Below, piece by piece: positions 11,187 through 27,385 of a stretch of DNA of 56,378 bases. Positions within the stretch are counted from its first letter, which is position 1, and each line of letters starts with the position of its first letter. Origin of the DNA: Flavobacterium sp. Its GTDB lineage: Bacteria; Bacteroidota; Bacteroidia; Flavobacteriales; Flavobacteriaceae. The DNA is taken from assembly GCF_029242675.1 (NCBI RefSeq), contig NZ_JAQWTM010000131.1:1-56378 (forward strand). The letters run 5' to 3'. Under the pieces are notes generated by a model that saw nothing but the letters and a program-made list of their open reading frames with translations, had not been told where the DNA came from and did not search any database. The position numbers and the translations under genes are program-made.

Positions 11187-11310
11187 AGTAAGAATTAACC
11201 GAACTGTTATTTAAATGACAGTTAATTAACGAACAACATATTTAATTTTTTGATTGTGTTTTAGTTTAAAAAGTCAAGTGTTTTTTGATAACCAAAAAAA
11301 TCTCTATAGT

Positions 11311-12651
11311 ATGAAAATTGTAATTGTTGGAAGCGGATACGTTGGACTAGTAACAGGTGCGTGTTTTTCCGAAGTTGGTATTGATGTTACGTGTGTGGAT
11401 ATTGATCGTAATAAAATAGACAATCTTAATAAAGGAATTATCCCTATTTACGAGCCTGGATTAGAAGAAATGATAACCAGAAACATGAAAAAAGGGCGAT
11501 TAAGTTTCACAACTAACATCGCTGAGGCTTTAGTAGATTCTGAAGTTTTATTTATTTCTGTTGGAACTCCACCAGATGAAGACGGTAGTGCTGATCTCAA
11601 ATACGTATTATCTGTCGCTAGAGACTGCGGTAAAAACATCAATGATTACTTACTTGTTGTTACTAAAAGTACGGTTCCTGTAGGTACTTCGCAAAAAGTT
11701 AAAAAAGCATTACAAGAAGAACTAGATAAACGAAATGTTCAAATAGAATTTGATGTAGCTTCAAATCCTGAGTTTCTTAAAGAAGGAGCCGCAATTGACG
11801 ATTTCTTAAAACCAGATAGAATCGTAGTAGGATTAGAAAGCGAACGAGCTGAAGACTTAATGAAAAGTTTGTACAAGCCTTTTACCCTTAATGGTCATCC
11901 TGTTATTTTTATGGATATCATATCAGCAGAAATGACAAAATATGCAGCAAATTCAATGCTTGCCGCTAAAATTAGTTTTATAAATGACATCGCAAACCTT
12001 TGTGAGATTGTAGGCGCTGATATCAATAAAGTTCGAAAAGGAATTGGCTCTGACTCTCGCATTGGTCACAAATTTATATATCCCGGAATTGGATATGGTG
12101 GTTCTTGTTTCCCAAAAGATGTTCAAGCATTAATTCAAACAGCAAGTGAACATAATTATGAATTAAGAGTTCTAAAAGCAGTAGAGGCAGTAAATAATGA
12201 CCAAAAGCTTGTGCTTTTTCATAAAATAATGAAATATTTTAACGGAGATGTAAATGGTAAAACAATCGCACTTTGGGGACTGTCATTTAAACCACAAACT
12301 GATGATATGCGCGAAGCTCCTTCACTCTACATTGTCCAGCATTTATTAAAAGCAGGGGCTATTATTAAAGCGTATGATCCAATTGCTATCAACGAGGCTA
12401 AACATCATTTTGGCGACACCATATCCTACTGCGAAGACCAATACGAAACACTTATTGATGCCGACTGTCTCGCGATATTAACAGAATGGCCCGAATTTAA
12501 ATTCCCAAATCTAAAAATAGTTCAAAAATTACTTAAAACACCTGCTGTTTTTGACGGTAGAAATATATACGATAGACAAGAAATGAAAGACAGTGGATTT
12601 GATTATTTCTGTATCGGAATCAACACCTCAATGGATAGCGTCACACTATAA
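11311..12651 (+). CDS. ugd: UDP-glucose 6-dehydrogenase
   Basis: MKIVIVGSGYVGL Rossmann start at ATG 11311, KSTVPVGT, NPEFLKEG, catalytic GGSCFPKD and FKPQTDDMREAPS. Confidence 0.96.
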   Translation: MKIVIVGSGYVGLVTGACFSEVGIDVTCVDIDRNKIDNLNKGIIPIYEPGLEEMITRNMKKGRLSFTTNIAEALVDSEVLFISVGTPPDEDGSADLKYVLSVARDCGKNINDYLLVVTKSTVPVGTSQKVKKALQEELDKRNVQIEFDVASNPEFLKEGAAIDDFLKPDRIVVGLESERAEDLMKSLYKPFTLNGHPVIFMDIISAEMTKYAANSMLAAKISFINDIANLCEIVGADINKVRKGIGSDSRIGHKFIYPGIGYGGSCFPKDVQALIQTASEHNYELRVLKAVEAVNNDQKLVLFHKIMKYFNGDVNGKTIALWGLSFKPQTDDMREAPSLYIVQHLLKAGAIIKAYDPIAINEAKHHFGDTISYCEDQYETLIDADCLAILTEWPEFKFPNLKIVQKLLKTPAVFDGRNIYDRQEMKDSGFDYFCIGINTSMDSVTL

Positions 12652-12818
12652 TCTAAACATCAAATAATGTCTAGCAATGAAAGTTAATTACACAATAACT
12701 CTACAAACGTAACATTTAAAGTCAAGTATATTATAATCCTAAACCGTACGCTTACTTAATTTCGAACTTGATAAGAGTCTTGGCTTTTATTGGTTTTCAA
12801 TAGCAAAAAGAAGAAATA

Positions 12819-13205
12819 ATGAAGAAAAAAATACTAATTTTAGATGATGAAATGAGCATTTGCCTCCTTTTAGAAAACTTCCTGTCAAAAAATCATGAAG
12901 TTGTATCAATGAATAACGGACTTGATGCTTTACTATGGCTTGATGACAATATCCCTGATTTAATTATTAGTGACATTCAGATGGAAAAAATGGATGGATA
13001 TGAATTTCTGACACAGCTTCGTCAACGCGGCTTTACAAAGCATACACCGTGCATCATGTTATCAGGAAAATCAGAAAGTAAAGAACGTATAAAATGTTAT
13101 AAACTTGGAGCACAAGATTACCTTACCAAGCCTTTTAATCCTGAAGAATTAGATGAATTGGTTAAGAAAAACTTATTTCCTATTCATTATGCAATAGAGT
13201 GGTAA
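12819..13205 (+). CDS. Single-domain response regulator (CheY-like)
   Basis: ILDDE, PDLIISDIQM, MLSG and DYLTKPF are all canonical. No output domain. Confidence 0.95.
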   Translation: MKKKILILDDEMSICLLLENFLSKNHEVVSMNNGLDALLWLDDNIPDLIISDIQMEKMDGYEFLTQLRQRGFTKHTPCIMLSGKSESKERIKCYKLGAQDYLTKPFNPEELDELVKKNLFPIHYAIEW

Positions 13206-13253: not shown

Positions 13254-14453
13254 ATGAATCCAATTCTTACTATTTTATACATTGGGAACAATCCTGCCTA
13301 TTTTGATGTGGTGGAACAGAATAAATGGACCATAATAACATTAGATAATAGTGCCAAAGTCACTAACTATCTAGAAAATCAAAAAAAACCCGACGCTATA
13401 ATTTGCGATTATAACTTACCAGGAAATAATGGAATTTACCTTTTTGATTGGATCAGAAGCAATAGTTCATTAGATACAATTCCGTTTATACTGTTATCAA
13501 AAGAGTTCAACATCGATCTCTACAAGTTAGCTTTCCAGAAAAAAATTGACGATTTTTATGTTACCTCAGTAACGGAGCCATTGGATATTTTAAATCGCAC
13601 TTCATTTCTTTGCGATAATAGAAAACCTGTTGCGGTAAAACAAGAATTTAAACCTATTAAAGAGGCTTATAAAATGCCACTTTCAAAACGTATTTTTGAT
13701 ATTTTTGTTGCCTCATCTGTCTTATTAGTTGCCTCCCCGTTTTTGCTGCTTATCATACTAGCTATTCGACTAGAGTCAAAAGGAAAAGTGTATTATGTAT
13801 CAAAAAGAGTCGGTCGCAAAACATTTGATTTTTACAAATTGAGATCAATGCGTACAGGATCCGACGAATTATTAAAGAAACTAGCACTTGAAAAAAATCA
13901 ATACAAAAAAGAAGAAACAGTTTCAGCAAATAATCCCCTTGAAACACCTTGCCCTCGATGCAGCAATTTAGCAGTCGGCAACTCTTGCTCTCCTCTAATG
14001 TACATTGATACTCACGCTATTTGCGATTATTGGTACAATATTCAAAAACAAGAAGCTGCAAAAAGCAATTCAACTTTTGTTAAAATTGTTGATGACCCTC
14101 GTGTTACCAAGGTTGGAAAATTTATTAGAAACACTAGTATTGATGAATTACCACAGTTAATTAATGTTTTAAAGGGTGACATGTCTATTGTAGGCAACAG
14201 ACCTTTACCCGTTTACGAAGCCGAACTAATTACTGGTGATGAAATCTCTAAACGCTTTTTAGCACCTCCGGGAATAACGGGATTATGGCAGGTAGAACTC
14301 AGAGGAAAAGGCGGAAAAATGTCTGAAGAAGAAAGAATGCGACTAGATAATGAATATGCTGATCAATTTGAAGGAGATAATTATTCATTTTGGTATGACA
14401 TTAAGCTCATCCTAAGAACAATTCCTGCATTACTTCAAAAAGGATCTGTCTAA
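13254..14453 (+). CDS. Priming polyprenyl glycosyl-phosphate transferase with N-terminal receiver-like domain
   Basis: KRIFDI plus hydrophobic helix, FYKLRSM, DPRVTKVGKFIRNTSIDELPQLINVLKGDMSIVGNRP and PGITGLWQV. The N-terminus has PDAIICDYNLPGNNG. Confidence 0.93.
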   Translation: MNPILTILYIGNNPAYFDVVEQNKWTIITLDNSAKVTNYLENQKKPDAIICDYNLPGNNGIYLFDWIRSNSSLDTIPFILLSKEFNIDLYKLAFQKKIDDFYVTSVTEPLDILNRTSFLCDNRKPVAVKQEFKPIKEAYKMPLSKRIFDIFVASSVLLVASPFLLLIILAIRLESKGKVYYVSKRVGRKTFDFYKLRSMRTGSDELLKKLALEKNQYKKEETVSANNPLETPCPRCSNLAVGNSCSPLMYIDTHAICDYWYNIQKQEAAKSNSTFVKIVDDPRVTKVGKFIRNTSIDELPQLINVLKGDMSIVGNRPLPVYEAELITGDEISKRFLAPPGITGLWQVELRGKGGKMSEEERMRLDNEYADQFEGDNYSFWYDIKLILRTIPALLQKGSV

Positions 14454-14478: not shown

Positions 14479-15207
14479 ATGAAACAATTAGTACCACTAC
14501 TCTTTATCCTAACCTTATCGGTGTTTTCGATCAACGTAACGACTGCACAATCAACTGATATTGACAATAATCGGGAGGAAATACAACTACCCTCTCTTCA
14601 AGTAATCATAGATTCTGTTTTGAGCAGGAACTCTATGCTTAAATTTAGAAACCAACACATTGGTGTCAAAGAATCGACTTTGGCATCAGAGCGAATTTAC
14701 TGGACACGAAATTTTGGAGTTCAAGCTGATACAAAATATGGTAATTTAAATAATTTCTCTACCAATGCTGATGCGCAAGGCAACACTTCTGTCTTAACAA
14801 CTTCATCACAATTCAATTATAGTGTAGGCGTTTATCTTAAAATTCCTGTTTTTGATTTTATAAATAGAAAGCATCAAGTAGGTTTAGCAAAACTAGAGCT
14901 CGACGAGGCGAAAAGTATGGCTAAGTTTCAAGAAGATGAGATTAGACAAACTGTGATAAAGATGTATCAAGACTTGATTTTGAAACAAAGAGTTCTCAAA
15001 ATAAAATCAAAAGTACTAAGCGACGGCAAAGTAAATATGCAAATGGTAGAAAAAGAATTTAGAAACGGAGTAGTTCCCGTTGCTGAATATGTAAGGATAA
15101 CAAGTATTACATCGAATGTAGAAGTAGATTATGAGTTCGCTAAGTCTGAATTTATAACAGCAAAAAAACTTTTAGAAGACATGGCTGGATTTACCTTTTA
15201 CCAATAA
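14479..15207 (+). CDS. Short TolC/outer-membrane-efflux-family protein
   Basis: Signal peptide ending in AQ, then one OEP-like repeat: helix, two predicted beta strands (FGVQADTKY and YSVGVYLKIPVFD), coiled helices with YQDL and FRNG. Confidence 0.75.
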   Translation: MKQLVPLLFILTLSVFSINVTTAQSTDIDNNREEIQLPSLQVIIDSVLSRNSMLKFRNQHIGVKESTLASERIYWTRNFGVQADTKYGNLNNFSTNADAQGNTSVLTTSSQFNYSVGVYLKIPVFDFINRKHQVGLAKLELDEAKSMAKFQEDEIRQTVIKMYQDLILKQRVLKIKSKVLSDGKVNMQMVEKEFRNGVVPVAEYVRITSITSNVEVDYEFAKSEFITAKKLLEDMAGFTFYQ

Positions 15208-15222
15208 GTTGAAAATAAAACT

Positions 15223-17601
15223 ATGAAAATAATTGAATTTATTAGATTAATACTAAAACACTTAGCATTATTAATACTAGTGCCGCTTTTCCTAGCGGTA
15301 TTAGTATTAGTGCTTACTAGCAAACCCAATTTTGAATATACGTCTCAAACGATTTTATATACTGGACTTGCCACAGGGTCCTCGATTGAGATGGATAAAA
15401 CATTTAATTATTTTGCTACCAATACTTCTTTTGATAACCTCATCAATATTATTAACTCCAGAGAAACCCAAGAGGAAGTGGCAGTACGCTTGTTTGCCAC
15501 ACACATCATGTTACCAAAGGCCAACCCTAAATATATATCCAAAAAGCTGTTTGACGAACTTAAATTAAAGGTTCCAAAAAATATTTACAAATACATCGCT
15601 AAAGGAAACAGTAGTGGAATGTTAGCAAGTGACACTCTAGCTATTTACAATTCGCTACCTCCAGAAATTGATAGATACAATTATGAAAAAACAGTGAAGC
15701 AATTATTGCAATTAATGAAAAGCAGTAGTGATAATTACATCTATGAGTTACTAAATTATGAAGATGACAAGCATTATTCTATCAAAGCTTTATCCAGTAT
15801 TCAAGCCACTAGAATAAACAGTAGTGACTTGATAAAAATGAGTTATACGGTAGATGATCCTGGTATTTGTCAGCAAACACTAGAGATTTATAACGCCATT
15901 TGCATTAAAAACTATAAAAATATAAAAGAAAACAGATCGGATGCGGTCGTAAAATATTTTCAAGAGCAATTAGGGCAGGCTAACAACACCTTAAAATTAG
16001 CCGAGGACAAGTTACTAGAGTTCAATAAGTCATACAACATTATCAATTACTACGAACAAAGTAAAGCTGTTGCAGTTGTAAAAGAAGATATGGAAGTTGA
16101 CTACAATAATAAAAAAGCACAGTTAGCTGGAACAGAGGCATCGACTAAAAGACTAGAAGAAAAACTTAACGTACAGGAATATATTCAAAATGAAACCTAT
16201 AAAGTACTTGAAAAAAAGAAGTCATTGGGCGAAATTAATTATCAAATTGCGTTCAACGAAGCAAGTATAGAATCCAATACTAATGACAAACTAGAATCAA
16301 AGCTTACTGCTCTAAAAAAACAAAGAGAAGCCTTGACAGCCGATATTAAAAAAAGCGTAGATGATATTTATAGTTATCAAAATTCAATAGATGGCGTTCC
16401 ATTAACTAAAATACTACCTGACTGGATGAACAGTGTTGTTGAGTCTGACAACCTCAAGGCCAAGATAAAGGTCATGGATAAGCAAAATAAAGATTTTCAA
16501 CAACAATATGCTACTTACGCCCCAGCAGGTGCAACTATAAAACGATTAGAGCGCGAAATATCGGTTTCAGAACAGGGATATTTAGAGTTACTGCATGGGT
16601 TAAACTTAGCAAAACTAAAACTGCAAGACAATGAAATGTCTTCAAATCTAAAAGCTATTGATCCGCCATTTTATCCTTTATCCCCAAACCCAACCAAAAG
16701 AGCCATTTTAATTATTGCTGCTGCTTTTATTGGTGGTATCATAACGCTAGCCATAATTTTAATCATGGAATATTTTGATGACACTCTTAAAAACGCAAAA
16801 AAAGCGAGCAAAAAATTAGGCTTACCCGCTTTAGGCATGATTCCTAAAATGATCTTAGATCCAGGAAATATTAATTTGGCGTTTATTCAAAAAAGACTTC
16901 TAGCAATTGTTACGCAAAATATTTTACAGTATTTTGGTTCTCAACCTACAATAAAATCGCCAAAGACCATTGTAGTATTCAGTACACAAAGCATGGAGGG
17001 TAAAACAGTTGTGGCAGGAAATATCGCTAAAACATTAAAACAAGAAGGAAAAAAAGTACTAATGTTAACTTATGACAATAGACAAAAACCCATTGTTCAG
17101 CAAAGAAAATTTTCAATCATCAATAAACTTCTTGGCTATCCTGATCCTAGAATAGATCTTGCCAACCCTTTTCTTGCAGATGTAGGCAGCTATTTAAATA
17201 AGTCCGAATACTATTCGTATAAAATGGATCATCAATTTTATGAGGCTAAAAACTATATAGATCTACTTGAGCAGAACAACATAAACCTTACATATGATCC
17301 TGATTTTGTAATTATCGAGTTACCTTCTTTGATTTTTAACAATTACCCAGCTGATTTAATGACCCACGCGGACTTAGGTATTTTAGTATGTCGCTCAAAT
17401 AGAATTTGGACAGAAGCAGATCAGGCTGCAATAAATAACCTATTGGTTAAGGCTACATCCAAAATTAAGATTATTGTTAATGGTGTAAGCATAAATGAAA
17501 TCGAATCTGTACTGGGTGATTTACCTAAAAAGAGAAGCATCCTAAGAAAAAAAATAAAAGCCATGTTTAAATTTCAATTTTTCTCTAAAAATCAGATTTA
17601 A
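15223..17601 (+). CDS. Wzc/GumC-like polysaccharide co-polymerase
   Basis: N-terminal TM, long coiled-coil periplasmic region, IDPP...P.P then second TM, EYFDDTLK...LG.IP linker and a P-loop-like EGKT. Confidence 0.88.
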   Translation: MKIIEFIRLILKHLALLILVPLFLAVLVLVLTSKPNFEYTSQTILYTGLATGSSIEMDKTFNYFATNTSFDNLINIINSRETQEEVAVRLFATHIMLPKANPKYISKKLFDELKLKVPKNIYKYIAKGNSSGMLASDTLAIYNSLPPEIDRYNYEKTVKQLLQLMKSSSDNYIYELLNYEDDKHYSIKALSSIQATRINSSDLIKMSYTVDDPGICQQTLEIYNAICIKNYKNIKENRSDAVVKYFQEQLGQANNTLKLAEDKLLEFNKSYNIINYYEQSKAVAVVKEDMEVDYNNKKAQLAGTEASTKRLEEKLNVQEYIQNETYKVLEKKKSLGEINYQIAFNEASIESNTNDKLESKLTALKKQREALTADIKKSVDDIYSYQNSIDGVPLTKILPDWMNSVVESDNLKAKIKVMDKQNKDFQQQYATYAPAGATIKRLEREISVSEQGYLELLHGLNLAKLKLQDNEMSSNLKAIDPPFYPLSPNPTKRAILIIAAAFIGGIITLAIILIMEYFDDTLKNAKKASKKLGLPALGMIPKMILDPGNINLAFIQKRLLAIVTQNILQYFGSQPTIKSPKTIVVFSTQSMEGKTVVAGNIAKTLKQEGKKVLMLTYDNRQKPIVQQRKFSIINKLLGYPDPRIDLANPFLADVGSYLNKSEYYSYKMDHQFYEAKNYIDLLEQNNINLTYDPDFVIIELPSLIFNNYPADLMTHADLGILVCRSNRIWTEADQAAINNLLVKATSKIKIIVNGVSINEIESVLGDLPKKRSILRKKIKAMFKFQFFSKNQI

Positions 17602-17611
17602 AAATTTGTAA

Positions 17612-19000
17612 ATGAAAATACTAAAAAAAATAGTGCGTGAGGACAACTTCCTCTCCTTAACTGGAAACGTGGTGATCGCCATTTTGGGAATTGGGGGATT
17701 TGCCCTACTTGCTAGAAGCCTATCATTAGACGTATTTGGTGAATGGGTACTATTTATTGCGGCAGGTTCATTTGTTGAAATGTTCCGTTTTGGTATTACG
17801 AATACCGGTTTAATACGATACTTGTCGGGAGCTGACGGTTCCTATAGAATAAAACTAATTGGTTCGAATGCACTAATAAGTTTAGGTGCAACGGTGCTTG
17901 TAGCTCTTATACTGATCGCTTGTAAAATACTATTCCCTGAGGCGATTACAAACTCCGGTTACAATATGTTTTTTACTTGGTATCCCTTGCTCGCTTTCCT
18001 AAACCTACCTTGGAACATCGCTCTAGTAGTATTGCAGGCTGATAGAAAGTATATGCAAATTCTAGTCTTAAAAGCAATTAATAGTGGCGCTTTTTTTTTA
18101 GTTATACTTTTTCACTTTATAGCCGTAACACTGAGCTTGAGTAAATTAGTTATTGCATTGATAATTGTTAATGCGGCAACTTCAATTATTAGTATGATTC
18201 TAGGATGGGACGGTATACTCTTAATCAAGAAAGCAAGTGCCGAGACAAATAAAGAGCTACTGCATTTTGGTAAATACACCACCTTTACATTAATAGGGAC
18301 AAATTTATTGCGAAGTGTTGATACTTTAATTATTAGTTTAAGTCCCTTAGGAAGCGCTGCAGTGGCCTTGTACAGCATTCCTTTGAAGCTAACCGAACTG
18401 CAACAAATACCTCTTAGGAGTTTTGTAGCAACTGCCTTTCCTAAAATGTCAAAAGCGAGCTTACTAAATCAAATTGACGAAGTAAAAAGTTTGTTTTATG
18501 TGTACTCAGGTGCCTTAACTTACCTTTTTGTGGGAATCAGTATAGTCACATTTGTATTTGCTGAGTTTTTTGTGATTGTTATAAGCGGCCATAAATACTT
18601 AGTCACTGATCCAGTTACAGGTTTTAATGTAGTCGATATCGTTAGAGTGTTTTCTATTTATGGATTGTTATTACCAATTGATAGAATGACGGGCGTAGGC
18701 TTAGATAGCATAAACCGACCTAAAATTAATGCTATCAAAGTTTTTGTTATGCTGCTAGCAAACGTTATTGGAGATTTAGTCGCCATTTTCGTCTTCAAAT
18801 CATTAATTATGGTCGCCATTGCCTCTATCCTTTTTACTATTGTTGGTATATGGATGGGAATGTATTTTCTAGATAAAGAACTTTCGTTATCATACAAATC
18901 AATATTTACAAAAGGCGTCTTATTTTATATCTCACTTTTAAATAAACTAACGAATAATCGATACAAACGATTAGTCAAAATACAAAACAGTTCTAAATAA
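17612..19000 (+). CDS. wzx: Wzx-type flippase
   Basis: Multi-TM protein with LLARSLS...FGEW and LG..AVALY patterns, in polysaccharide context. Confidence 0.82.
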   Translation: MKILKKIVREDNFLSLTGNVVIAILGIGGFALLARSLSLDVFGEWVLFIAAGSFVEMFRFGITNTGLIRYLSGADGSYRIKLIGSNALISLGATVLVALILIACKILFPEAITNSGYNMFFTWYPLLAFLNLPWNIALVVLQADRKYMQILVLKAINSGAFFLVILFHFIAVTLSLSKLVIALIIVNAATSIISMILGWDGILLIKKASAETNKELLHFGKYTTFTLIGTNLLRSVDTLIISLSPLGSAAVALYSIPLKLTELQQIPLRSFVATAFPKMSKASLLNQIDEVKSLFYVYSGALTYLFVGISIVTFVFAEFFVIVISGHKYLVTDPVTGFNVVDIVRVFSIYGLLLPIDRMTGVGLDSINRPKINAIKVFVMLLANVIGDLVAIFVFKSLIMVAIASILFTIVGIWMGMYFLDKELSLSYKSIFTKGVLFYISLLNKLTNNRYKRLVKIQNSSK

Positions 19001-20487
19001 TGAGTACAAACAATAACATAAATCCTTTTGAAAACTATTCAGGATCAATGAACTTATCCAGACCTGGGTATTTATTATTGCTTTTTGGTTTCCTTTCTGT
19101 TATTGGTTTACTGGTTGTTAAACTCGGGATTATTGGAATTATATTAGTGTTCGCGCTACTATTTGGTTCTGTTTTTTTATATTATTTATTCTGTTATCCA
19201 ATAATTGGTTTTTACACCGCCATCGCTTTAAATTTCATGCTCCTAGGCATAGGAAGATATATTAAAGGGTTGCCTTTAGGTTTTGGTATAGATGGCATAC
19301 TTGTTTTGACTTACATTGCTTTGTTCATGAATAAGTTTAAGAAAAAAATAGATTGGACTCCTGCAAAAAAGGACATTACGTTCTTATGCATTATATGGTT
19401 TGCCTATTCCCTATTTGAAATCATTAATCCCGAAGCCAGAAGCATACAAGCTTGGATTTCAGGACGTGGTATTGCTTTTTACCCACTGCTTTTTGTGCCA
19501 TTGACTCTTATGTTTATTGATAGTAGCAAAAAATTACAAATGTTTTTCTACATCTGGGGTATATTCTCACTATTGGGAACGTTAAAAGGGATAATGCAAA
19601 TGACTATGGGCGTTGACTTTGCAGAGCAAGAATGGCTAAATGAGGGAAGTTATAAAACACATATTCTCTTTGGTAAATTAAGGGTTTTTTCTTTCTATAG
19701 CGACGCAGGACAATTTGGAGCTAATCAAGGTTATACCGGCGTTGTGTTTTTGATATATGCCATGTCACAAAGTAAAATTTTATCTAAGTTATTTTTCATC
19801 TTTGTTGGTCTTTTGGGAATCTATGGAATGGTTATCTCAGGCACAAGAGGTGCATTAGCTGTCCCTATAGTTGGTTTTATGACCTATTTTATTTTAAGTA
19901 AAAACGTAAAAGTAATTATAACAGGTGTCGCTTTTTTAGCAATTGTTTTTATTTTCTTCAAATACACAACTATCGCTCAAGGTAATGCACAAGTACGAAG
20001 GATGCGAACGGCCTTTGACCCTAACGACGCCTCATTACAAGTTAGACTTGATAACCAAAAAATACTGAAAAACTATTTATCATCAAGGCCCTTTGGAGGA
20101 GGAATTGGACATGGAGGTACAAAAGCACAAAAATATTTGCCTAATGCCTTCTTATCGAATGTAGCTACCGATAGCTGGTATGTATTGATTTGGGTCGAGG
20201 AAGGAATTGTGGGCTTACTGCTTCATTTAGGAATTTTATTTTATGTAATGATAAAAGCGAGTCTCATTGTCATGTTTAAAATCAAGGATCCTGTTTTAAA
20301 ATATAAAATGTCCGCTCTAATAGCCGGAATGGCCGGAATCATGGTAGCCTCCTATGGTAATGCTGTATTAGGACAAATGCCCACAGCACTATTAATTTAT
20401 GCAACAATGGCGATCATCTTAAATACAGATGTATTTGAAAAAGAAAATGAACAATCAGCAAACCTACTAAACCATTCAAAACATTAA
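19000..20487 (+). CDS. Wzy polymerase / O-antigen-ligase-family protein
   Basis: Multi-TM protein with SGTRGAL, a periplasmic loop SLQVR...PFGGGIG and DSWY....VEEGIVG. TAATG-coupled to wzx. Confidence 0.85.
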   Translation: MSTNNNINPFENYSGSMNLSRPGYLLLLFGFLSVIGLLVVKLGIIGIILVFALLFGSVFLYYLFCYPIIGFYTAIALNFMLLGIGRYIKGLPLGFGIDGILVLTYIALFMNKFKKKIDWTPAKKDITFLCIIWFAYSLFEIINPEARSIQAWISGRGIAFYPLLFVPLTLMFIDSSKKLQMFFYIWGIFSLLGTLKGIMQMTMGVDFAEQEWLNEGSYKTHILFGKLRVFSFYSDAGQFGANQGYTGVVFLIYAMSQSKILSKLFFIFVGLLGIYGMVISGTRGALAVPIVGFMTYFILSKNVKVIITGVAFLAIVFIFFKYTTIAQGNAQVRRMRTAFDPNDASLQVRLDNQKILKNYLSSRPFGGGIGHGGTKAQKYLPNAFLSNVATDSWYVLIWVEEGIVGLLLHLGILFYVMIKASLIVMFKIKDPVLKYKMSALIAGMAGIMVASYGNAVLGQMPTALLIYATMAIILNTDVFEKENEQSANLLNHSKH

Positions 20488-20527: not shown

Positions 20528-21466
20528 ATGAATTATAGAAACATTAAAAATTTAAATGATATTATACTTCAAAAATTAAGTATTATTCCTCGCGACTTCG
20601 ATCTAATTGTTGGTGTGCCAAGAAGCGGTATGTTACCTGCAAATTTACTGTCCTTGTACCTCAACAGGCCTTATACCGATATTGATTCTTTTTTAAATGG
20701 ACATATCTATAAAGCCGGAGCTCGCTCCCAGTTTTTCGATTCCGGCGAACATAAAAAAGTTTTAATTGTCGATGATAGTATCGCATCTGGATCCGCAATG
20801 ATTGAGGTAAAAGAAAGTTTAAAGCATCTTGAAGATAAATTTGATTTAAAGTATTGTGCTATTTATGTAATTCCTGGAAAAGAAAAAATGGTTGACTACT
20901 TTTTTGAGATAGTTACTTTACCTAGGTATTTTCAATGGAATATTTTAAATCATACTACTCTGGAAAAAGCTTGCTTTGATATTGATGGAGTACTTTGTGC
21001 AGACCCTTTGCCAGAACAAAATGATGATGGAGAAAAATACATCGATTTTATTTTGAATGCGCCACCCTTATTTATTCCTGGAAGTAAAATAGGAACCATA
21101 GTAACCTCTAGATTAGAAAAATATCGCAAACAAACCGAAACGTGGTTGGAAGCTAATAATATCAAATATAATGATTTAGTCATGCTCGATTTACCTACTA
21201 TGGAAGCTAGGCAACGTGCTAACAATCATGGGGACCATAAGGCAAAAGCATATATGGCTAAACCTTATGTTTTATTTATCGAAAGTGAATTAAATCAAGC
21301 AATTGAAATTAATAGAATATCTAAAAAACCTGTGTTATGTACAGCTAATTTTGAGATGATATTTGAATCTGAATCTTTCATGTACAATCTAAAGAGCGGA
21401 AAACACTTGCCATTCCTTAGAAAATATGCTTTAAAGGTGAGAGATAAAATTAGAAAACTGAAATAG
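20528..21466 (+). CDS. Type I phosphoribosyltransferase fused to a HAD-family phosphatase
   Basis: IVGVPRSG and PRPP loop VLIVDDSIASGS. C-terminal FDIDGVLC (motif I), IVTSR (II), K (III) and FIES (IV variant). Confidence 0.85.
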   Translation: MNYRNIKNLNDIILQKLSIIPRDFDLIVGVPRSGMLPANLLSLYLNRPYTDIDSFLNGHIYKAGARSQFFDSGEHKKVLIVDDSIASGSAMIEVKESLKHLEDKFDLKYCAIYVIPGKEKMVDYFFEIVTLPRYFQWNILNHTTLEKACFDIDGVLCADPLPEQNDDGEKYIDFILNAPPLFIPGSKIGTIVTSRLEKYRKQTETWLEANNIKYNDLVMLDLPTMEARQRANNHGDHKAKAYMAKPYVLFIESELNQAIEINRISKKPVLCTANFEMIFESESFMYNLKSGKHLPFLRKYALKVRDKIRKLK

Positions 21467-21515: not shown

Positions 21516-22718
21516 ATGCTACTATATACCATCATACAAACTGTTTTACTGTGCCTGCTTGGTTTGGCGACTTTATATATTTTAGTGTTTTCGATTGCAA
21601 GCTTATTTTACAAACAAAAAATATATGCTGACAATGGCAACCTTAAAAAAATTGCAGTACTTGTCCCAGGGTATAAGGAGGACGGAGTGATTATAGAAGT
21701 CGCCACGTTAGCGCTACAGCAAGAATATCCTGCTAATTTATACGATGTAGTAATCATAGCCGACTCGTTTCAAGAAGAAACAATTGCAGCTTTAAAATCC
21801 TTGCCTATAAAAGTAATTGAGGTTAGTTTTGAAAAAAGCACAAAATCAAAAGCTTTAAACAAAGCCATGGCAGCGTTAGATAGAGACTATGATATAGCCG
21901 TAGTACTTGATGCCGATAATGTGATGGCTAAAGATTTTTTGAAAAAAATAAATGCTGCTTTTGAATATGATTTTATTGCGGTACAAGGGCATCGAACTGC
22001 AAAAAACACCAATAATTCTTGGGCAATACTTGACGCAATCAGTGAAGAGATAAACAATAATATTTTTAGAAAAGGACATCGTGTTTTAGGTTTGTCATCT
22101 GCGATAATAGGGTCAGGCATGGCCTTTAGATATAATTATTTCAAGACACTGATGTCAACTGTGACTGCGGTAGGCGGTTTTGATAAAGAAATAGAGCTAA
22201 AAATGCTAAAAGAAGGCCGTAAAATAGTTTATCTAGATGACGCAGTGGTTTATGATGAAAAAATACAAAAATCGGAAGTTTTTGGAAACCAACGCCGCAG
22301 ATGGTTGTCAGCACAAATACACTATTTCAAAAAAGACATTCTAACTGCCACTAAACATTTAGTACTTAAAGGCAATGTCGATTATTTTGATAAAGCAATT
22401 CAATTTATTCAACCACCCCGAATCTTACTTTTAGGTGCAGTAATCCTTTGTAGTGGTGCTTTTATCTTGATTAATTACTTTGTAGGCAATCAAAGCTCTT
22501 TAACTTCATATTGGATACTATTGGTCGTGGCATGCGTTATGTCATTTGTTTTTTCAGTTCCAAGATCATTTTACAATTTAAAAACTGTAAATGCTTTGGC
22601 TCGTTTGCCAAAAGGAATGTTCATGATGTTACTTTCGCTACTAAAAATAAAAGGAGCTAACAAAACATTTATTCACACACAGCACACTTCTACATCAAAA
22701 GAAATAAATTCTAAATAA
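21516..22718 (+). CDS. GT2 glycosyltransferase, membrane-associated
   Basis: VLVPGYKE, KSKALN, LDAD and QRRRW, with N- and C-terminal TMs. Confidence 0.92.
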   Translation: MLLYTIIQTVLLCLLGLATLYILVFSIASLFYKQKIYADNGNLKKIAVLVPGYKEDGVIIEVATLALQQEYPANLYDVVIIADSFQEETIAALKSLPIKVIEVSFEKSTKSKALNKAMAALDRDYDIAVVLDADNVMAKDFLKKINAAFEYDFIAVQGHRTAKNTNNSWAILDAISEEINNNIFRKGHRVLGLSSAIIGSGMAFRYNYFKTLMSTVTAVGGFDKEIELKMLKEGRKIVYLDDAVVYDEKIQKSEVFGNQRRRWLSAQIHYFKKDILTATKHLVLKGNVDYFDKAIQFIQPPRILLLGAVILCSGAFILINYFVGNQSSLTSYWILLVVACVMSFVFSVPRSFYNLKTVNALARLPKGMFMMLLSLLKIKGANKTFIHTQHTSTSKEINSK

Positions 22719-22722
22719 CTAA

Positions 22723-23814
22723 ATGAAAAACAAAGAAATAGAAAAACTAGAGGCCATTCGTGGTTTTTGTGCACTCTATGTGGTGTTTTTTCACTTGTTA
22801 CCTCAAAAAATTATTGTTTTGGGTATCAATGTGGGGTTTCTATTTCGTTTTGGCTCTGAAGCTGTGATTATGTTTTTCATATTGAGTGGTTTTGTAGTCA
22901 AATATTCATGGGAGAAAGCGGCAGACAAGTCATTTAAGAACTATTTTTTTCGACGTTTTACTCGAATATACATTCCATTATTCTTCATTTTTTTATTGGC
23001 CTATGGTATAAAAAGTTACTCTGAAGGTGGATGGGCAAATCCAGATTGGAACACTCTTTTAGGTAATATTTTTATGCTTCAAGATGTCATTTCACTAAAA
23101 CCAAATGTAATTTCAGCAGTCTATATGGGAAATGGTGTGCTTTGGTCACTATCTTATGAGTGGTGGTTTTATATGCTTTTTATCCTTTTATCTAAAAAGG
23201 TATCTGAATCTAAAATCAATCTTTGGGTCACTATCTTAACGATTACTGCAACGGTATCTTACCTGACATATCCTTTCTTTTTAAATAGAATTGTAATGTA
23301 TTTTGCTATTTGGTGGACCGGTGTGCGATTAGCCTCTATTTACCTCAACGGAGCCGCCTATAGCTTTAAATCAATCCAAACGCATAGTTATGTGCTAGCT
23401 GTTATAATTGGGCTATTAGGGCTTAATCTCTATTTGAATTTTGAATACACCAAAATTTATGATTATCCACTAGTAGCATACCCATTTATAGAATTACGCA
23501 ATTTTATTTTTGCATTTATAGCCTTGTTTGCAGCTTTGATATGGAACCACTTTAATTGGTTTTTATTTACACGCCTATTTGGAGTTTTCAAATATTTTGC
23601 CCCATTATCTTATGTTATGTACATTTCGCACCACTACTTAGTTATTGAAGCAAGTTACCTTCGTTTTTTAAATAATAAGATTATCGAATACACCCTTTAC
23701 ATTATTTTGATGTTTGTGTTTTCTTACTTGTTAGAAATCGTGGTGTATACTAAAATAAAAAACAGCCTTACAATTCGTTTTTTTAATCAACCAATAAAAA
23801 AAATAGCATCATGA
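22723..23814 (+). CDS. Acyltransferase-3 (OafA-like O-acyltransferase)
   Basis: LEAIRG..A..VV..H, AV.MFFILSGF, RRFTRIY and LWSLSYEWWFY. Confidence 0.92.
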   Translation: MKNKEIEKLEAIRGFCALYVVFFHLLPQKIIVLGINVGFLFRFGSEAVIMFFILSGFVVKYSWEKAADKSFKNYFFRRFTRIYIPLFFIFLLAYGIKSYSEGGWANPDWNTLLGNIFMLQDVISLKPNVISAVYMGNGVLWSLSYEWWFYMLFILLSKKVSESKINLWVTILTITATVSYLTYPFFLNRIVMYFAIWWTGVRLASIYLNGAAYSFKSIQTHSYVLAVIIGLLGLNLYLNFEYTKIYDYPLVAYPFIELRNFIFAFIALFAALIWNHFNWFLFTRLFGVFKYFAPLSYVMYISHHYLVIEASYLRFLNNKIIEYTLYIILMFVFSYLLEIVVYTKIKNSLTIRFFNQPIKKIAS

Positions 23815-24974
23815 AAATAGGAATTGAAGGACAAAGACTTTTTCGAAAAAAGAAACACGGAATGGACATGGTTGCTTTAGAGCTTATAAAGAACCTTCAG
23901 GATCTTGATCATGAAAACCAATACTTCATTTTTGTAAAACCAGATGAAGATCGATCTGTGCTTAAAGAGACAGCAAATTTTAAAATTATAGAATTAAATG
24001 GTGGTCCCTACCCTACTTGGGAGCAAATAGCACTTCCTAACGCAGCCAAAAAATATGGCTGTGACGTGTTGCATTGTACTAGTAATACTGCTCCATTTTT
24101 CTCCAGTGTTCCTTTAATTACCATACTTCATGATATTATATACATGGAAAGTAGCTTCTTGAAAATCGTAACGAGCAGTGCGAGTACCTATCAAAAATTT
24201 GGAAATATATACAGGAAACTTCTCGTGCCACTGGTTGTGAAAAAAAGTAAAAAGGTTATTACCGTATCACACTTTGAAAAAAACCGAATTGGAGAATTTT
24301 TTAAAATAAAGGGTAGTTCTAAACTTGACGCCATTTATAACGGCGTGAGCGAACATTTTATGCCCATAACTGATAGAGACGAATTATTAAGAGTCAAAAA
24401 CAAGTATAATTTACCTGAAAACTACTTTTTCTTCCTAGGAAATACTGACCCAAAAAAAAACACTAAAGGAACATTAAAGGCCTTTTCTGACTTTTTAAAG
24501 CAGACAAAATCAAACCATAAATTAGTCATGCTTGATTATGACAAGACAGAGCTAAGTAAGATTTTAGTTGACATAAAGGATCCCGAACTAATTAATCATA
24601 TTGTATTAACTGGTTACGTAGTTAATACTGATTTGCCTGCTATTTATTCTCAATGCGATATCTTTTTATATCCGTCACTACGCGAAAGTTTTGGTATTCC
24701 CATGCTCGAAGCTATGTCTTGTAATGTACCTGTTATCACATCAAATACCTCATCTATGCCAGAAATTGCAGCTGATGCGGCTCATATCATAAACCCATTA
24801 AATCCAGAAGAGATAACTACTGGACTTATGGAGATTTTAAATAATGATGCCTATAAAAAATCACTTTGTGAAAAAGGATTAGAAAGAAGTAAACAGTTTT
24901 CTTGGAGAAATATGGCAAAAGACTATTTAAAACTGTACGAGCAAATTCATGCTGAACATTCTATAAAACACTAA
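23811..24974 (+). CDS. GT4 glycosyltransferase
   Basis: LHD, IYNG, PKKN and YPSLRESFGIPMLEAM (EX7E). Confidence 0.94.
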   Translation: MKIGIEGQRLFRKKKHGMDMVALELIKNLQDLDHENQYFIFVKPDEDRSVLKETANFKIIELNGGPYPTWEQIALPNAAKKYGCDVLHCTSNTAPFFSSVPLITILHDIIYMESSFLKIVTSSASTYQKFGNIYRKLLVPLVVKKSKKVITVSHFEKNRIGEFFKIKGSSKLDAIYNGVSEHFMPITDRDELLRVKNKYNLPENYFFFLGNTDPKKNTKGTLKAFSDFLKQTKSNHKLVMLDYDKTELSKILVDIKDPELINHIVLTGYVVNTDLPAIYSQCDIFLYPSLRESFGIPMLEAMSCNVPVITSNTSSMPEIAADAAHIINPLNPEEITTGLMEILNNDAYKKSLCEKGLERSKQFSWRNMAKDYLKLYEQIHAEHSIKH

Positions 24975-24977
24975 ATC

Positions 24978-26189
24978 ATGATCGAAGGGAAAAACATCAT
25001 TTGTATATCGCAAACAACGTGGCATGGTGAATTCACTAAGTCAACGGTACAATTGTTATCACTCTTAGCAGAAAAAAACACAATTGTTTTTGTCGAATAC
25101 CCTTTCACAATTAAAGATGTTGTCATGTCTTTACTTGGAAAACAAAAAGCACAAGTAGCACGAATGTTAGGCTTAAAAAACAGAATCAAAAATGAAATAA
25201 CAGACACTGGTGCAGTTGTAAAACATTTGGTCATGCCTCCTGTTTTACCCGTAGACTTCATTTCTAGTGAATCATTATTTAAAAAAATATTTTCTATTAA
25301 CACCTTTATCTATCGCAGCCAACTCCGTAAAACTATTAAAGACTTAAAATTAGTTGACCCCATAATACTAACGGCTTACAACCCCATGTATGGTCTACCC
25401 ATGATCAATAAATTACACGAGTATTTAAATATTTACTATTGTTATGATGGAATGGATACACAAAGACACAAATCGAGAATTTACAATATTGAAAAACAAT
25501 TTTGTAAAAAAGTAGACACAATTATAACCACATCTGATTATTTGAATGCTGAAAAGAAAAAATTAAATCCACAAAGCTATGTGGTTAAAAATGGTGTCGA
25601 TTTTAAGTTGTTTGTTCCTTTCGCAAAAACCATGATAACAGCTGTAGATGTAGTCAAAAAAGTGGGCTACATTGGGACCTTAGATTTTCGTTTTGATATT
25701 GATACTATGGAATATGCCATTAAGGAATTGCCTGAAGTCCTATTTGAATTTACAGGTTATTTACTAAACAATGAAATTCAGGAGCGTTTATCACCCTATA
25801 AAAATGTAACATTCTTTACCTCAGTTAAAGCACATGAAGTACCTAAACTACTTTCAAAATATGATTTAGGTATTATTCCCTATAAAATGAACGAAGTAAA
25901 TCGCAATATTTATCCTTTAAAAATTAATGAATATTTAGCCGTTGGGGTGCCTGTAGTAATGACTGCTTTTGCTGATTTGACTGATTTTAAAGCCATAGTT
26001 AAAGCTGCTGTAAATAAAGAACTTTTCAAAATCTATATCGAAGAAGAATTAAAAAATGATAGCAAACATTTAATTCAAGAGCGAATCGAATTTGCTAAAC
26101 GTAATTCATGGGAAAATAGAGCCTCAGCATTTAGCGATATAATTGAAAAATCTATAGAAGCAAAATATCCTTCTAAAACTTTAAAATAA
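24978..26189 (+). CDS. GT-B glycosyltransferase (TuaH/GT4-like)
   Basis: YYCYD, KNGVD, GYIG and PLKINEYLAVGVPVV. Confidence 0.88.
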   Translation: MIEGKNIICISQTTWHGEFTKSTVQLLSLLAEKNTIVFVEYPFTIKDVVMSLLGKQKAQVARMLGLKNRIKNEITDTGAVVKHLVMPPVLPVDFISSESLFKKIFSINTFIYRSQLRKTIKDLKLVDPIILTAYNPMYGLPMINKLHEYLNIYYCYDGMDTQRHKSRIYNIEKQFCKKVDTIITTSDYLNAEKKKLNPQSYVVKNGVDFKLFVPFAKTMITAVDVVKKVGYIGTLDFRFDIDTMEYAIKELPEVLFEFTGYLLNNEIQERLSPYKNVTFFTSVKAHEVPKLLSKYDLGIIPYKMNEVNRNIYPLKINEYLAVGVPVVMTAFADLTDFKAIVKAAVNKELFKIYIEEELKNDSKHLIQERIEFAKRNSWENRASAFSDIIEKSIEAKYPSKTLK

Positions 26190-26194
26190 AAACC

Positions 26195-27385
26195 ATGACT
26201 ACACTAAAAATTATATTTTGGATTTTCTTATTTATCATAGTGTATACATATGTTGGATATGGAATTTTATTATTTGCAATCATCAAAGTAAGGAGGTTTT
26301 TTAATATTGGTGGGGAGATTAAAATAGATTATTCCTATGAACCTGAAGTAACTTTGTTTATTGCCGCTTATAATGAAAAAGATTATGTGGCTGCAAAAAT
26401 GAAAAACTCATTAGAACTAGAATATCCAAAAGAGAAATTAAATATCATTTGGGTGACTGACGGATCTGATGATGGAACACCTGATTTATTACAAAATTAC
26501 CCAAATACAACCGTTCATCACTTGAATGAACGAAACGGTAAAATTGGTGCAATGAATAGAGGAATTGCATTTGTAACTACTCCTATTGTAATTTTTAGTG
26601 ACGCTAATACTAACTTAGGAAAAGAATCTGTAAGACGAATTGTCAATTTATTTAGTAGTCCAAAAGTAGGTTGCGTTTCTGGGGAAAAGCGAATTGTAGA
26701 TCGAGAAAGTGATGTGGCTTCAGGTGCTGGTGAGGGTATTTACTGGAAATATGAATCGGCCTTGAAAAAATGGGATGCTGAATTGTATTCAGTTGTTGGT
26801 GCTGCAGGAGAATTGTTTGCAATTAGAACTGCTTTATATCGCCACGTAGAGAAAGACACCCTTTTAGATGACTTTATCATTTCATTACGCGTTGCTCAAG
26901 AGGGTTACATCATACAATATGACCCTCAAGCCTACGCCATCGAAACTGCGTCAGCAAACGTAAAGGAAGAACTGAAACGCAAAATTAGAATATCGGCAGG
27001 AGGAATTCAATCTATTGTGAGATTACGTTCTCTTTTAAACATTTTTAAATATGGAACGCTCTCTTTTCAATACATTTCACATCGTGTATTGCGTTGGAGC
27101 TTGACACCAGTCTGTTTGCTACTATTAATCCCTGTTTTGACTGTCATTGCATTAAGCGAAGGCATCATGTCATTAGGTTTATATTCTACTCTATTTTGGT
27201 TGCAGTTCCTTTTTTATGCCGCTGCGCTACTAGGTTGGTTTTTAGAAAACAGAAAAACCCGAGTTAAAATTTTATTTGTGCCGTATTATTTCTTTATCAT
27301 GAATTTATCCGTTGTATTGGGGTTTTTTAGATATATGAAAAATTCACAATCTGTGAACTGGGAACGTTCAAAAAGAGCGGCATAA
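26195..27385 (+). CDS. GT2 glycosyltransferase, membrane-associated
   Basis: IAAYNE, DGSDD, FSDAN, YWKYE, GELFAIR and DDF, with flanking TMs. Confidence 0.93.
   Translation: MTTLKIIFWIFLFIIVYTYVGYGILLFAIIKVRRFFNIGGEIKIDYSYEPEVTLFIAAYNEKDYVAAKMKNSLELEYPKEKLNIIWVTDGSDDGTPDLLQNYPNTTVHHLNERNGKIGAMNRGIAFVTTPIVIFSDANTNLGKESVRRIVNLFSSPKVGCVSGEKRIVDRESDVASGAGEGIYWKYESALKKWDAELYSVVGAAGELFAIRTALYRHVEKDTLLDDFIISLRVAQEGYIIQYDPQAYAIETASANVKEELKRKIRISAGGIQSIVRLRSLLNIFKYGTLSFQYISHRVLRWSLTPVCLLLLIPVLTVIALSEGIMSLGLYSTLFWLQFLFYAAALLGWFLENRKTRVKILFVPYYFFIMNLSVVLGFFRYMKNSQSVNWERSKRAA

What the first reader, a model, noticed from the sequence alone, without database searches (positions are those of the whole stretch)
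20528..21466. PRTase-HAD fusion inside the EPS operon: candidate ribofuranosyltransferase
Seen: an N-terminal type I PRTase (VGVPRSG, VLIVDDSIASGS) joined to a HAD domain (DIDG, TSR, K, ES), lying between wzy and the GTs. Known: ribofuranose in bacterial polysaccharides is installed from PRPP by dual-domain enzymes that transfer ribose-5-phosphate and then remove the phosphate with a HAD domain. As I recall, the characterised ones are larger and have the HAD domain first. Inference: this compact 312-aa PRT-then-HAD protein may be an independent solution to glycan ribosylation. Motif IV is atypical (ES rather than DD), so the phosphate might be retained.
Basis: partly seen in the sequence, partly recalled or inferred. 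Interest (0 to 1): 0.7.

Follow-up and report, generated by a model that had tools for sequence, protein, structure and literature searches.

The report
WbaM-type ribose-adding polysaccharide enzyme
This gene joins a classical phosphoribosyltransferase to a small phosphatase inside a polysaccharide gene cluster and is 44% identical to E. coli WbaM, so it likely adds a ribose sugar to the exported polymer with protein parts unlike those of the biochemically studied ribose-adding enzymes; uncultured phages carry the same module beside their capsid genes.

Summary
Window 20528-21466 encodes a 312-aa type I PRTase (XGPRT-like fold) fused to a capless, T4-Pnkp-like HAD domain inside a Wzx/Wzy-type glycan locus. 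It is 44% identical over ~280 aa to E. coli O183 WbaM and O105 WbsZ. A review reports WbaM as confirmed for adding beta-Ribf to GlcA. In 5,426 E. coli genomes, homologues appeared in 13, all O105- or O183-type, both Ribf serogroups. Purine-binding residues are lost, HAD catalytic residues are invariant, and 33 of 68 long relatives are fused to glycosyltransferases. It likely transfers ribose-5-phosphate from PRPP to a lipid-linked repeat unit, then removes the phosphate. The 'phosphate retained' idea is unlikely: WbaM has the same ES motif and its product is drawn unphosphorylated. Order, cap and DD motif differ from canonical PRP-gPRT enzymes, so this is probably a second, biochemically unstudied solution. 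The scan reported this family before on other DNA. New here: 144 viral contigs carry it, often between capsid and neck genes with glycosyltransferases, suggesting ribosylated virion glycans. No ribose-containing structure for this locus was found.

The parts
20528..21466 (+). 312-aa PRTase-HAD fusion (P0001), WbaM-type candidate beta-ribofuranosyltransferase
20528..20962 (+). Type I PRTase domain (res ~1-145): PRSG loop, DDS PRPP motif, family-specific PRxF(E/Q)WN strand where purine PRTases have their base-binding strand
20963..21367 (+). Capless HAD phosphatase (res ~146-280): D151-x-D153, T193-S-R195, K238, E252-S253
21368..21466 (+). Basic C-terminal helix (net +7 over res 295-312), predicted membrane tether; 77 of 78 bacterial relatives have a tail of 20 aa or more, 68 of 72 phage relatives have 10 aa or less
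11254..12651 (+). Nucleotide-sugar dehydrogenase (TIGR03026 above cut-off; best match UDP-glucose 6-dehydrogenase TuaD, below cut-off); likely UDP-GlcA supply
13254..14453 (+). Response-regulator / bacterial sugar transferase fusion (initiating phosphoglycosyltransferase)
14479..15207 (+). Outer-membrane efflux (OEP/TolC-like) protein in the place usual for Wza
15223..17601 (+). Wzc-like chain-length / co-polymerase protein (weak GNVR and EPS co-polymerase matches, below cut-offs)
17612..19000 (+). Wzx-like flippase
19000..20487 (+). Wzy_C / O-antigen-ligase family membrane protein
21516..27385 (+). GT2, acyltransferase-3, GT4, GT4, GT2: the repeat-unit-building genes downstream

Best explanation
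P0001 is a WbaM-family enzyme, a type I PRTase fused to a capless HAD domain, that likely transfers ribose-5-phosphate from PRPP to a sugar of the lipid-linked repeat unit and then likely removes the phosphate, leaving a beta-ribofuranose branch. Shown: fold, motifs, locus and homology to WbaM/WbsZ. Inferred: PRPP is the donor (intact PRPP loops); inversion gives a beta linkage (type I PRTase chemistry, and the O183 linkage); the HAD works through D151 as nucleophile with Mg held partly by E252; the basic tail holds the enzyme at the inner membrane; ribosylation precedes flipping by Wzx. The acceptor is possibly glucuronic acid, as for WbaM (about even odds).
For: (1) 44% identity to the O183 gene between manB and wzx (125/282, E 3e-79), which is wbaM by the gene order in the review's supplement, and to O105 wbsZ (124/284, E 1e-68). 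Of 30 chosen motif sites, P0001 and WbaM share 28; the two others vary across the family. (2) Liu et al. [quoted passage not shown] (3) Three blastn queries found 13 of 5,426 E. coli genomes: 11 with the O105-type gene and 2 with the O183 gene; I opened 3 of 11 and 2 of 2. (4) 33 of 68 long relatives scanned carry a GT-type domain (GT2, GT4, GT8, GT28, RgpF, WbsX) and 8 more a methyltransferase; none is fused to a salvage enzyme (hand count). (5) 78 of 80 genome loci have glycan genes; the other two are 1.6- and 5-kb contigs. 8 of 10 plasmid loci opened are Wzx-linked. (6) Positions 86, 115 and 132, where purine PRTases have the general-base Asp, the O6-binding Lys and the stacking aromatic (roles recalled), are variable, variable and Pro 73/90. 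(7) D151, D153, R195, K238 and E252 are 90/90; T/S193 is 90/90. (8) The O105 and O183 flippases beside the gene are 58% identical although the other cluster genes differ, as expected if flipping follows ribosylation.
Against: No enzyme assay, and no ribose-containing structure for this Flavobacteriaceae locus was found. I saw the WbaM result only as cited in a review; the 2005 paper is not held. The tree joins WbaM to the P0001 clade with only 0.6 support, so acceptor specificity cannot be carried over. The window's flippase shows no BLAST similarity to the WbaM-linked flippases, and no window GT is a clear orthologue of an O183/O105 GT (best 27-29%). The 80 genome loci are close kin (72-96% identity) and largely one orthologous locus. 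Two homologues lie with no glycan gene nearby (L177, L178), and two Rhizobium loci sit between a caspase, a GT28 and VgrG.
Confidence: 0.76

Rival explanations
1. The enzyme ribosylates a glycan, but not a lipid-linked EPS repeat unit: the Wzy_C protein is a ligase and the product decorates LPS or a secreted protein.
For: PF04932 covers ligases and polymerases. The locus has an OEP protein rather than Wza. T9SS-tailed proteins neighbour many related loci. Phage and Rhizobium contexts suggest the family can serve protein-linked glycans.
Against: A Wzc-like co-polymerase, a flippase and an initiating transferase are all present. The basic tail fits a membrane-bound acceptor. The chemistry would be the same.
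Confidence: 0.1
2. Ribose is added but does not stay as plain Ribf: the 5-phosphate is kept, or C5 is oxidised to riburonic acid by a GMC oxidoreductase.
For: Motif IV is ES, not DD. GMC genes lie in 17 of 80 related Bacteroidota loci and beside the gene in S. fredii, R. sullae and Rhodobacter. M. loti R7A EPS ends in beta-riburonic acid (PMC8227245, passages).
Against: WbaM has ES and an unphosphorylated product. All HAD catalytic residues are invariant. No tblastn match to those GMC proteins in this genome (95.5% complete). The Flavobacteriaceae GMC is only about 25% identical to the rhizobial one. I could not test whether M. loti has the gene.
Confidence: 0.08
3. It is a nucleobase or small-molecule phosphoribosyltransferase plus nucleotidase that makes a free riboside and only happens to sit in glycan loci.
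For: The closest solved structures and HMMs are purine PRTases. Orphan copies exist.
Against: Purine-recognition positions are not conserved. Fusions are to GTs and methyltransferases. E. coli copies track two Ribf serogroups. The gene is patchy, 5 of 150 family genomes and 3 of 400 phylum genomes besides this one, and the genome has eight other PF00156 matches.
Confidence: 0.06

Closest known systems
WbaM (E. coli O183 / Shigella boydii type 10) and WbsZ (E. coli O105 / S. boydii type 11)
   Same: 44% identity over ~280 aa, same domain order, 28 of 30 motif sites shared including ES, basic C-terminal tail, location in a Wzx/Wzy cluster.
   Different: Other phylum and a separate, well-supported clade. 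Locus has Wzc-like and OEP genes rather than an O-antigen layout. Flippase not detectably similar. Acceptor and linkage unknown. WbaM is described only as a 'putative phosphoribosyltransferase'; no mention of its HAD domain was seen.
Dual-domain PRP-gPRT ribofuranosyltransferases (Klebsiella O4/O7, Thermobacillus 7shg, Salmonella STM0726, Hib Bcs3 CrpP-CriT, Campylobacter Cj1432)
   Same: Likely the same two-step logic: Ribf-5-P from PRPP, then HAD dephosphorylation, beta linkage.
   Different: They place the HAD first with a helical cap (98 aa in CrpP); CriT has helical bundles and a split D/E pair. P0001 has a ~145-aa XGPRT-like domain first, a vicinal DD and a capless HAD, 280 aa in all.
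6-oxopurine phosphoribosyltransferases (XGPRT / HGXPRT)
   Same: Core fold, PPi loop and PRPP loop (Z 14-15; HMM E 5e-12).
   Different: Purine-binding positions replaced, invariant R133/F135/W137/N138 instead, HAD fusion and glycan context.
T4 Pnkp 3'-phosphatase clade of HAD enzymes
   Same: Capless fold (5uj0, Z 13.0), DxDG, (S/T)xR and Lys motifs (T4 motifs recalled).
   Different: ES in place of DD in motif IV; substrate inferred to be a sugar 5-phosphate rather than an RNA end.

Membership tests
WbaM/WbsZ-type ribofuranosyltransferase | Full-length homology over both domains | tested here: met
   44%, E 3e-79 and 1e-68
WbaM/WbsZ-type ribofuranosyltransferase | Shared catalytic and family motifs (PRSG, DDS, PRxFxWN, DIDGVLC, TxR, K, FxES) | tested here: met
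   28 of 30 chosen sites identical
WbaM/WbsZ-type ribofuranosyltransferase | Encoded in a Wzx/Wzy-type cluster | tested here: met
WbaM/WbsZ-type ribofuranosyltransferase | Acceptor is glucuronic acid (beta-1,4) | tested here: inconclusive
   Ugd-like gene in locus, but no orthologous GT or flippase and weak tree support
WbaM/WbsZ-type ribofuranosyltransferase | Product contains beta-Ribf that depends on the gene | not testable with these tools
   needs glycan analysis; no structure found
Canonical PRP-gPRT / CrpP-CriT | N-terminal PRP, C-terminal gPRT | tested here: not met
   order is PRT then HAD (definition)
Canonical PRP-gPRT / CrpP-CriT | HAD with a large helical cap after motif I | tested here: not met
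   about 35 residues with one 9-residue helix between D153 and the next core strand, against a 98-aa cap in CrpP
Canonical PRP-gPRT / CrpP-CriT | gPRT with helical bundles and a split D/E pair instead of vicinal DD (described for CriT) | tested here: not met
   vicinal D82-D83 (D/E 90/90, D 90/90), no bundles
Canonical PRP-gPRT / CrpP-CriT | Detectable sequence or structure match to 7shg or Bcs3 | tested here: inconclusive
   not among the listed rows, which classical PRTases fill
Canonical PRP-gPRT / CrpP-CriT | PRPP-dependent transfer to sugar followed by dephosphorylation | not testable with these tools
   needs assay
6-oxopurine PRTase | Type I PRTase core with PRPP-binding loop | tested here: met
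6-oxopurine PRTase | General-base Asp, O6-binding Lys and purine-stacking aromatic (roles recalled) | tested here: not met
   A86, I115, P132 in P0001; variable, variable, Pro 73/90 in the family
Active HAD phosphatase | Motifs I-III (DxD, S/T, Lys) | tested here: met
   90/90 each
Active HAD phosphatase | Motif IV acidic pair (DD) | tested here: inconclusive
   ES: E 90/90, S 89/90; the same in WbaM, whose product is drawn unphosphorylated

The most novel reading that the evidence does not exclude
This 280-residue module is a second, convergently evolved class of glycan ribofuranosyltransferase, built from a purine-salvage PRTase and an RNA-repair-type phosphatase, and tailed phages have captured a tail-less version to put ribose into glycans on their own virions. 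In IMG/VR contigs it sits between the major capsid protein and neck genes, often as methyltransferase - PRT-HAD - GT2 - GT (L131, L134, L135, L138), or fused and inserted right after the capsid gene (L139, L149). Ribose on a phage capsid glycan was not found in my searches.
Probability: 0.4. Interest if true: 0.72.

Novelty: new member of a known kind. Interest (0 to 1): 0.45.

Why it matters
A review lists the origin of Ribf in E. coli O-antigens as unresolved in 2019, and the later biochemistry covers PRP-gPRT and lipid-donor routes. Five ribofuranosyltransferase papers searched do not mention WbaM (main-text term searches). A compact soluble WbaM-type enzyme would make a third route directly testable. 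It would allow ribose to be predicted in glycans from a large family now annotated as hypoxanthine or orotate PRTases (926 representatives at 50% identity; names). It would show a nucleotide PRTase fold switching from N- to O-ribosylation with little remodelling. The phage branch points to a possible new virion modification. For this window alone, the result is a better annotation of one accessory polysaccharide locus.

Tried and rejected
Retained phosphate from the ES motif: rejected as above. Purine salvage: rejected on residues, fusions and context. 7shg and Bcs3 were not among the rows listed by Foldseek, VIA-align or the HMM search; this does not show the folds differ. Cultured phages: no tblastn match with P0001 or with one viral homologue. 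RNA data: no RNA holder listed. Promoter and terminator scan: at shuffle level, uninformative. Mesorhizobium riburonic-acid link: could not be tested, because no route to proteobacterial chromosomes was left and the two reviews give no function for mlr5265/mlr5266. A whole-word search for wbaM returned gait papers in all 20 listed of 42; wbsZ with type 11 gave none. Kelly et al. 2022, Senchenkova et al. 2005 and Muszynski et al. 2016 are not held, so I cannot say whether Kelly et al. or their supplement already discuss WbaM; that bears on the 'unstudied' claim. Hydrophobic moment of the tail is only moderate (0.56, fifth-ranked window), so the membrane-tether reading rests on charge and distribution. 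The tree's deep nodes are unsupported.

Full report
Observation. Pfam finds PF00156 over residues 7-122 and nothing on the second half. An AlphaFold2 model from a 90-sequence alignment is confident (pLDDT 92.7). It matches xanthine-guanine PRTases over residues 1-149 (Z 15.0) and the T4 Pnkp 3'-phosphatase over 142-275 (Z 13.0). GC is even across the locus. The neighbours are a nucleotide-sugar dehydrogenase, a response regulator, a regulator-sugar-transferase fusion, an OEP protein, a Wzc-like protein, a flippase, a Wzy_C protein, and then GT2, acyltransferase, GT4, GT4 and GT2.

Family and context. The family is large: 4,298 clusters at 90% identity and 926 representatives at E 1e-30. I scanned 68 of the 70 representatives of 370 aa or more among the best 150. 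By hand count, 33 carry a GT-type domain, 8 a methyltransferase only, 2 TPR/Sel1 repeats, and none a salvage enzyme. Of the best 80 of 596 genome loci, 78 have glycan genes; the other two are short contigs. These are close kin and mostly one orthologous locus, so they count for little. More independent are the plasmid records: of 41 I opened 10, and 8 are Wzx-linked polysaccharide loci in Paracoccus, Rhodobacter, Sinorhizobium, Allorhizobium, Novosphingobium and R. sullae. Two Rhizobium loci lie between a caspase, a GT28-type gene and VgrG; 26 of the 41 records are Rhizobium, and I did not check how many share that context. Two further homologues have no glycan gene nearby. The gene is accessory: full-length in 5 of 150 family genomes, 3 of 400 phylum genomes, and 1 of 400 others in a second phylum.

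The link to ribose. Earlier scan notes named WbaM, and I tested that lead. Three blastn queries over 5,426 E. coli genomes gave 13 genomes, 11 with an O105-type gene and 2 with an O183 gene; the method reaches only about 65-70% DNA identity. I opened 3 and 2 of them. The gene lies beside an inverted wzx in the galF-gnd cluster. The gene order in the supplement of Liu et al. makes these wbsZ and wbaM. P0001 is 44% identical to each over about 280 aa. Passages of that review list Ribf in nine serogroups including O105 and O183, and say that WbaM's transfer of D-Ribf to D-GlcpA in a beta-1,4 side branch has been confirmed, citing Senchenkova 2005. I could not read that paper. The other genes of the O183 cluster are annotated as ordinary GTs, manC/manB, wzy and wzx.

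Mechanism. Shown: PRPP-binding elements are conserved (S33, G34, D83 90/90; R32, S84 88/90; G88 89/90). The positions where purine PRTases bind the base (roles recalled, alignment) are not conserved, and R133, F135, W137 and N138 are nearly invariant instead. HAD motifs I-III and E252 are 90/90. WbaM shares 28 of 30 chosen sites, ES included. Inferred: ribose-5-phosphate passes from PRPP to a sugar hydroxyl with inversion, and the HAD then removes the phosphate through an aspartyl-phosphate on D151. The basic C-terminal helix (net +7) is present in 77 of 78 bacterial relatives and would hold the enzyme near undecaprenyl-linked units. The O105 and O183 flippases are 58% identical, and flippases beside alphaproteobacterial copies are 20-30% identical to them. 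That fits cytoplasmic ribosylation before flipping. The acceptor here is uncertain: a Ugd-like gene is present, but the window's flippase and GTs are not orthologues of the O183 ones, and the tree joins WbaM to the P0001 clade at only 0.6.

Comparison with known enzymes. Characterised Ribf transferases have an N-terminal capped PRP and a C-terminal gPRT (passages of PMC11294581, PMC11127046, PMC11231755; abstract and introduction of PMC12096443). CriT has helical bundles and a split acidic pair (passages of PMC10299916). P0001 fails these features, so it is not a member, but it likely works like them. It is a member of the WbaM family by sequence and context. Term searches of the main text of these five papers found no 'WbaM', and library searches showed no biochemical study of it. 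Kelly et al. 2022 and its supplement were not available and may discuss it.

Phage branch. In IMG/VR, 144 of 155 candidate stretches encode a relative. Among the best 80, 29 have virion structural genes within 6 kb, 46 a GT or sugar gene, and 17 both. These are lower bounds from 58 scanned representatives, and the loci are not independent. Several sit between capsid and neck genes as methyltransferase - PRT-HAD - GT2 - GT. All 28 viral sequences tabulated keep the HAD catalytic residues, and 68 of 72 lack the basic tail. Capsid glycosylation is reported for mycobacteriophages Che8 and Rita (passage of PMC11256854). Ribosylation of virion glycans is my inference; host-glycan modification or DNA-related roles are not excluded, since seven loci lie in a T4-like recombination block. 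No cultured phage matched.

Verdict. A real PRTase-HAD fusion and a new member of the WbaM family, likely a beta-ribofuranosyltransferase (0.76). The family has a genetic precedent, but no mechanism in the papers I could see, and an unexplored phage branch. Interest 0.45.

Noticed in passing
L091-L170 (e.g. L131, L134, L135, L138, L139, L149): Uncultured tailed phages carry tail-less PRT-HAD genes inside head-neck modules with GT2, other GTs and methyltransferases; possible virion glycan ribosylation.
   Followed up: partly
L119, L120, L127, L132, L133, L142, L158: T4-like phages place the gene right after SSB-UvsX-UvsY, mostly with a methyltransferase, and often before nucleotidyltransferase/Man-6-P isomerase and GT8 genes.
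   Followed up: no
window 12651-12819: Close relatives L005 and L006 have an NDP-sugar epimerase/dehydratase gene (UDP-xylose-synthase-like by recalled motifs) between ugd and the response regulator. It is missing here while both flanks align; a 76% identical gene lies on G000:C66.
   Followed up: partly
window 14479-15207 and 13254-14453: The locus uses an OEP/TolC-like protein where Wza is usual (kept in 51 of 80 related loci) and a response-regulator-fused initiating transferase; an unusual export and regulation layout for a Wzx/Wzy system.
   Followed up: no
L001:11818-20642; L183:6817-15633: In Rhizobium etli and R. lentis plasmids the gene sits in a caspase - PRT-HAD - GT28 - VgrG block; in L001 it is next to UbiA/GtrA/FAD oxidoreductase/SDR/GT87 genes resembling a lipid-linked pentofuranose system.
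   Followed up: partly
L085:12188-17554; L181; L003; L007-L043: GMC oxidoreductases flank the gene in S. fredii, R. sullae, Rhodobacter and 17 of 80 Bacteroidota loci; possible ribose-to-riburonic-acid oxidation. No match in this genome.
   Followed up: partly
L003:14605-15579: Rhodobacter CZR27 has a second copy with a degenerate PRT site (PGGG, GDT) but intact HAD residues, next to the flippase.
   Followed up: no
(e.g. G045:C76:15952-16188): Many Flavobacteriaceae genomes have a standalone ~150-aa ORF weakly matching only the HAD half (E about 1e-6 to 1e-11).
   Followed up: no
P0122, P0123: Two representatives are tandem duplications of the whole PRT-HAD module (628 and 640 aa).
   Followed up: no
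L088:12599-15051; L089:11935-14364: In O105 and O183 the gene and an inverted wzx sit together at the cluster end; the flippases are 58% identical, suggesting a mobile two-gene module.
   Followed up: partly
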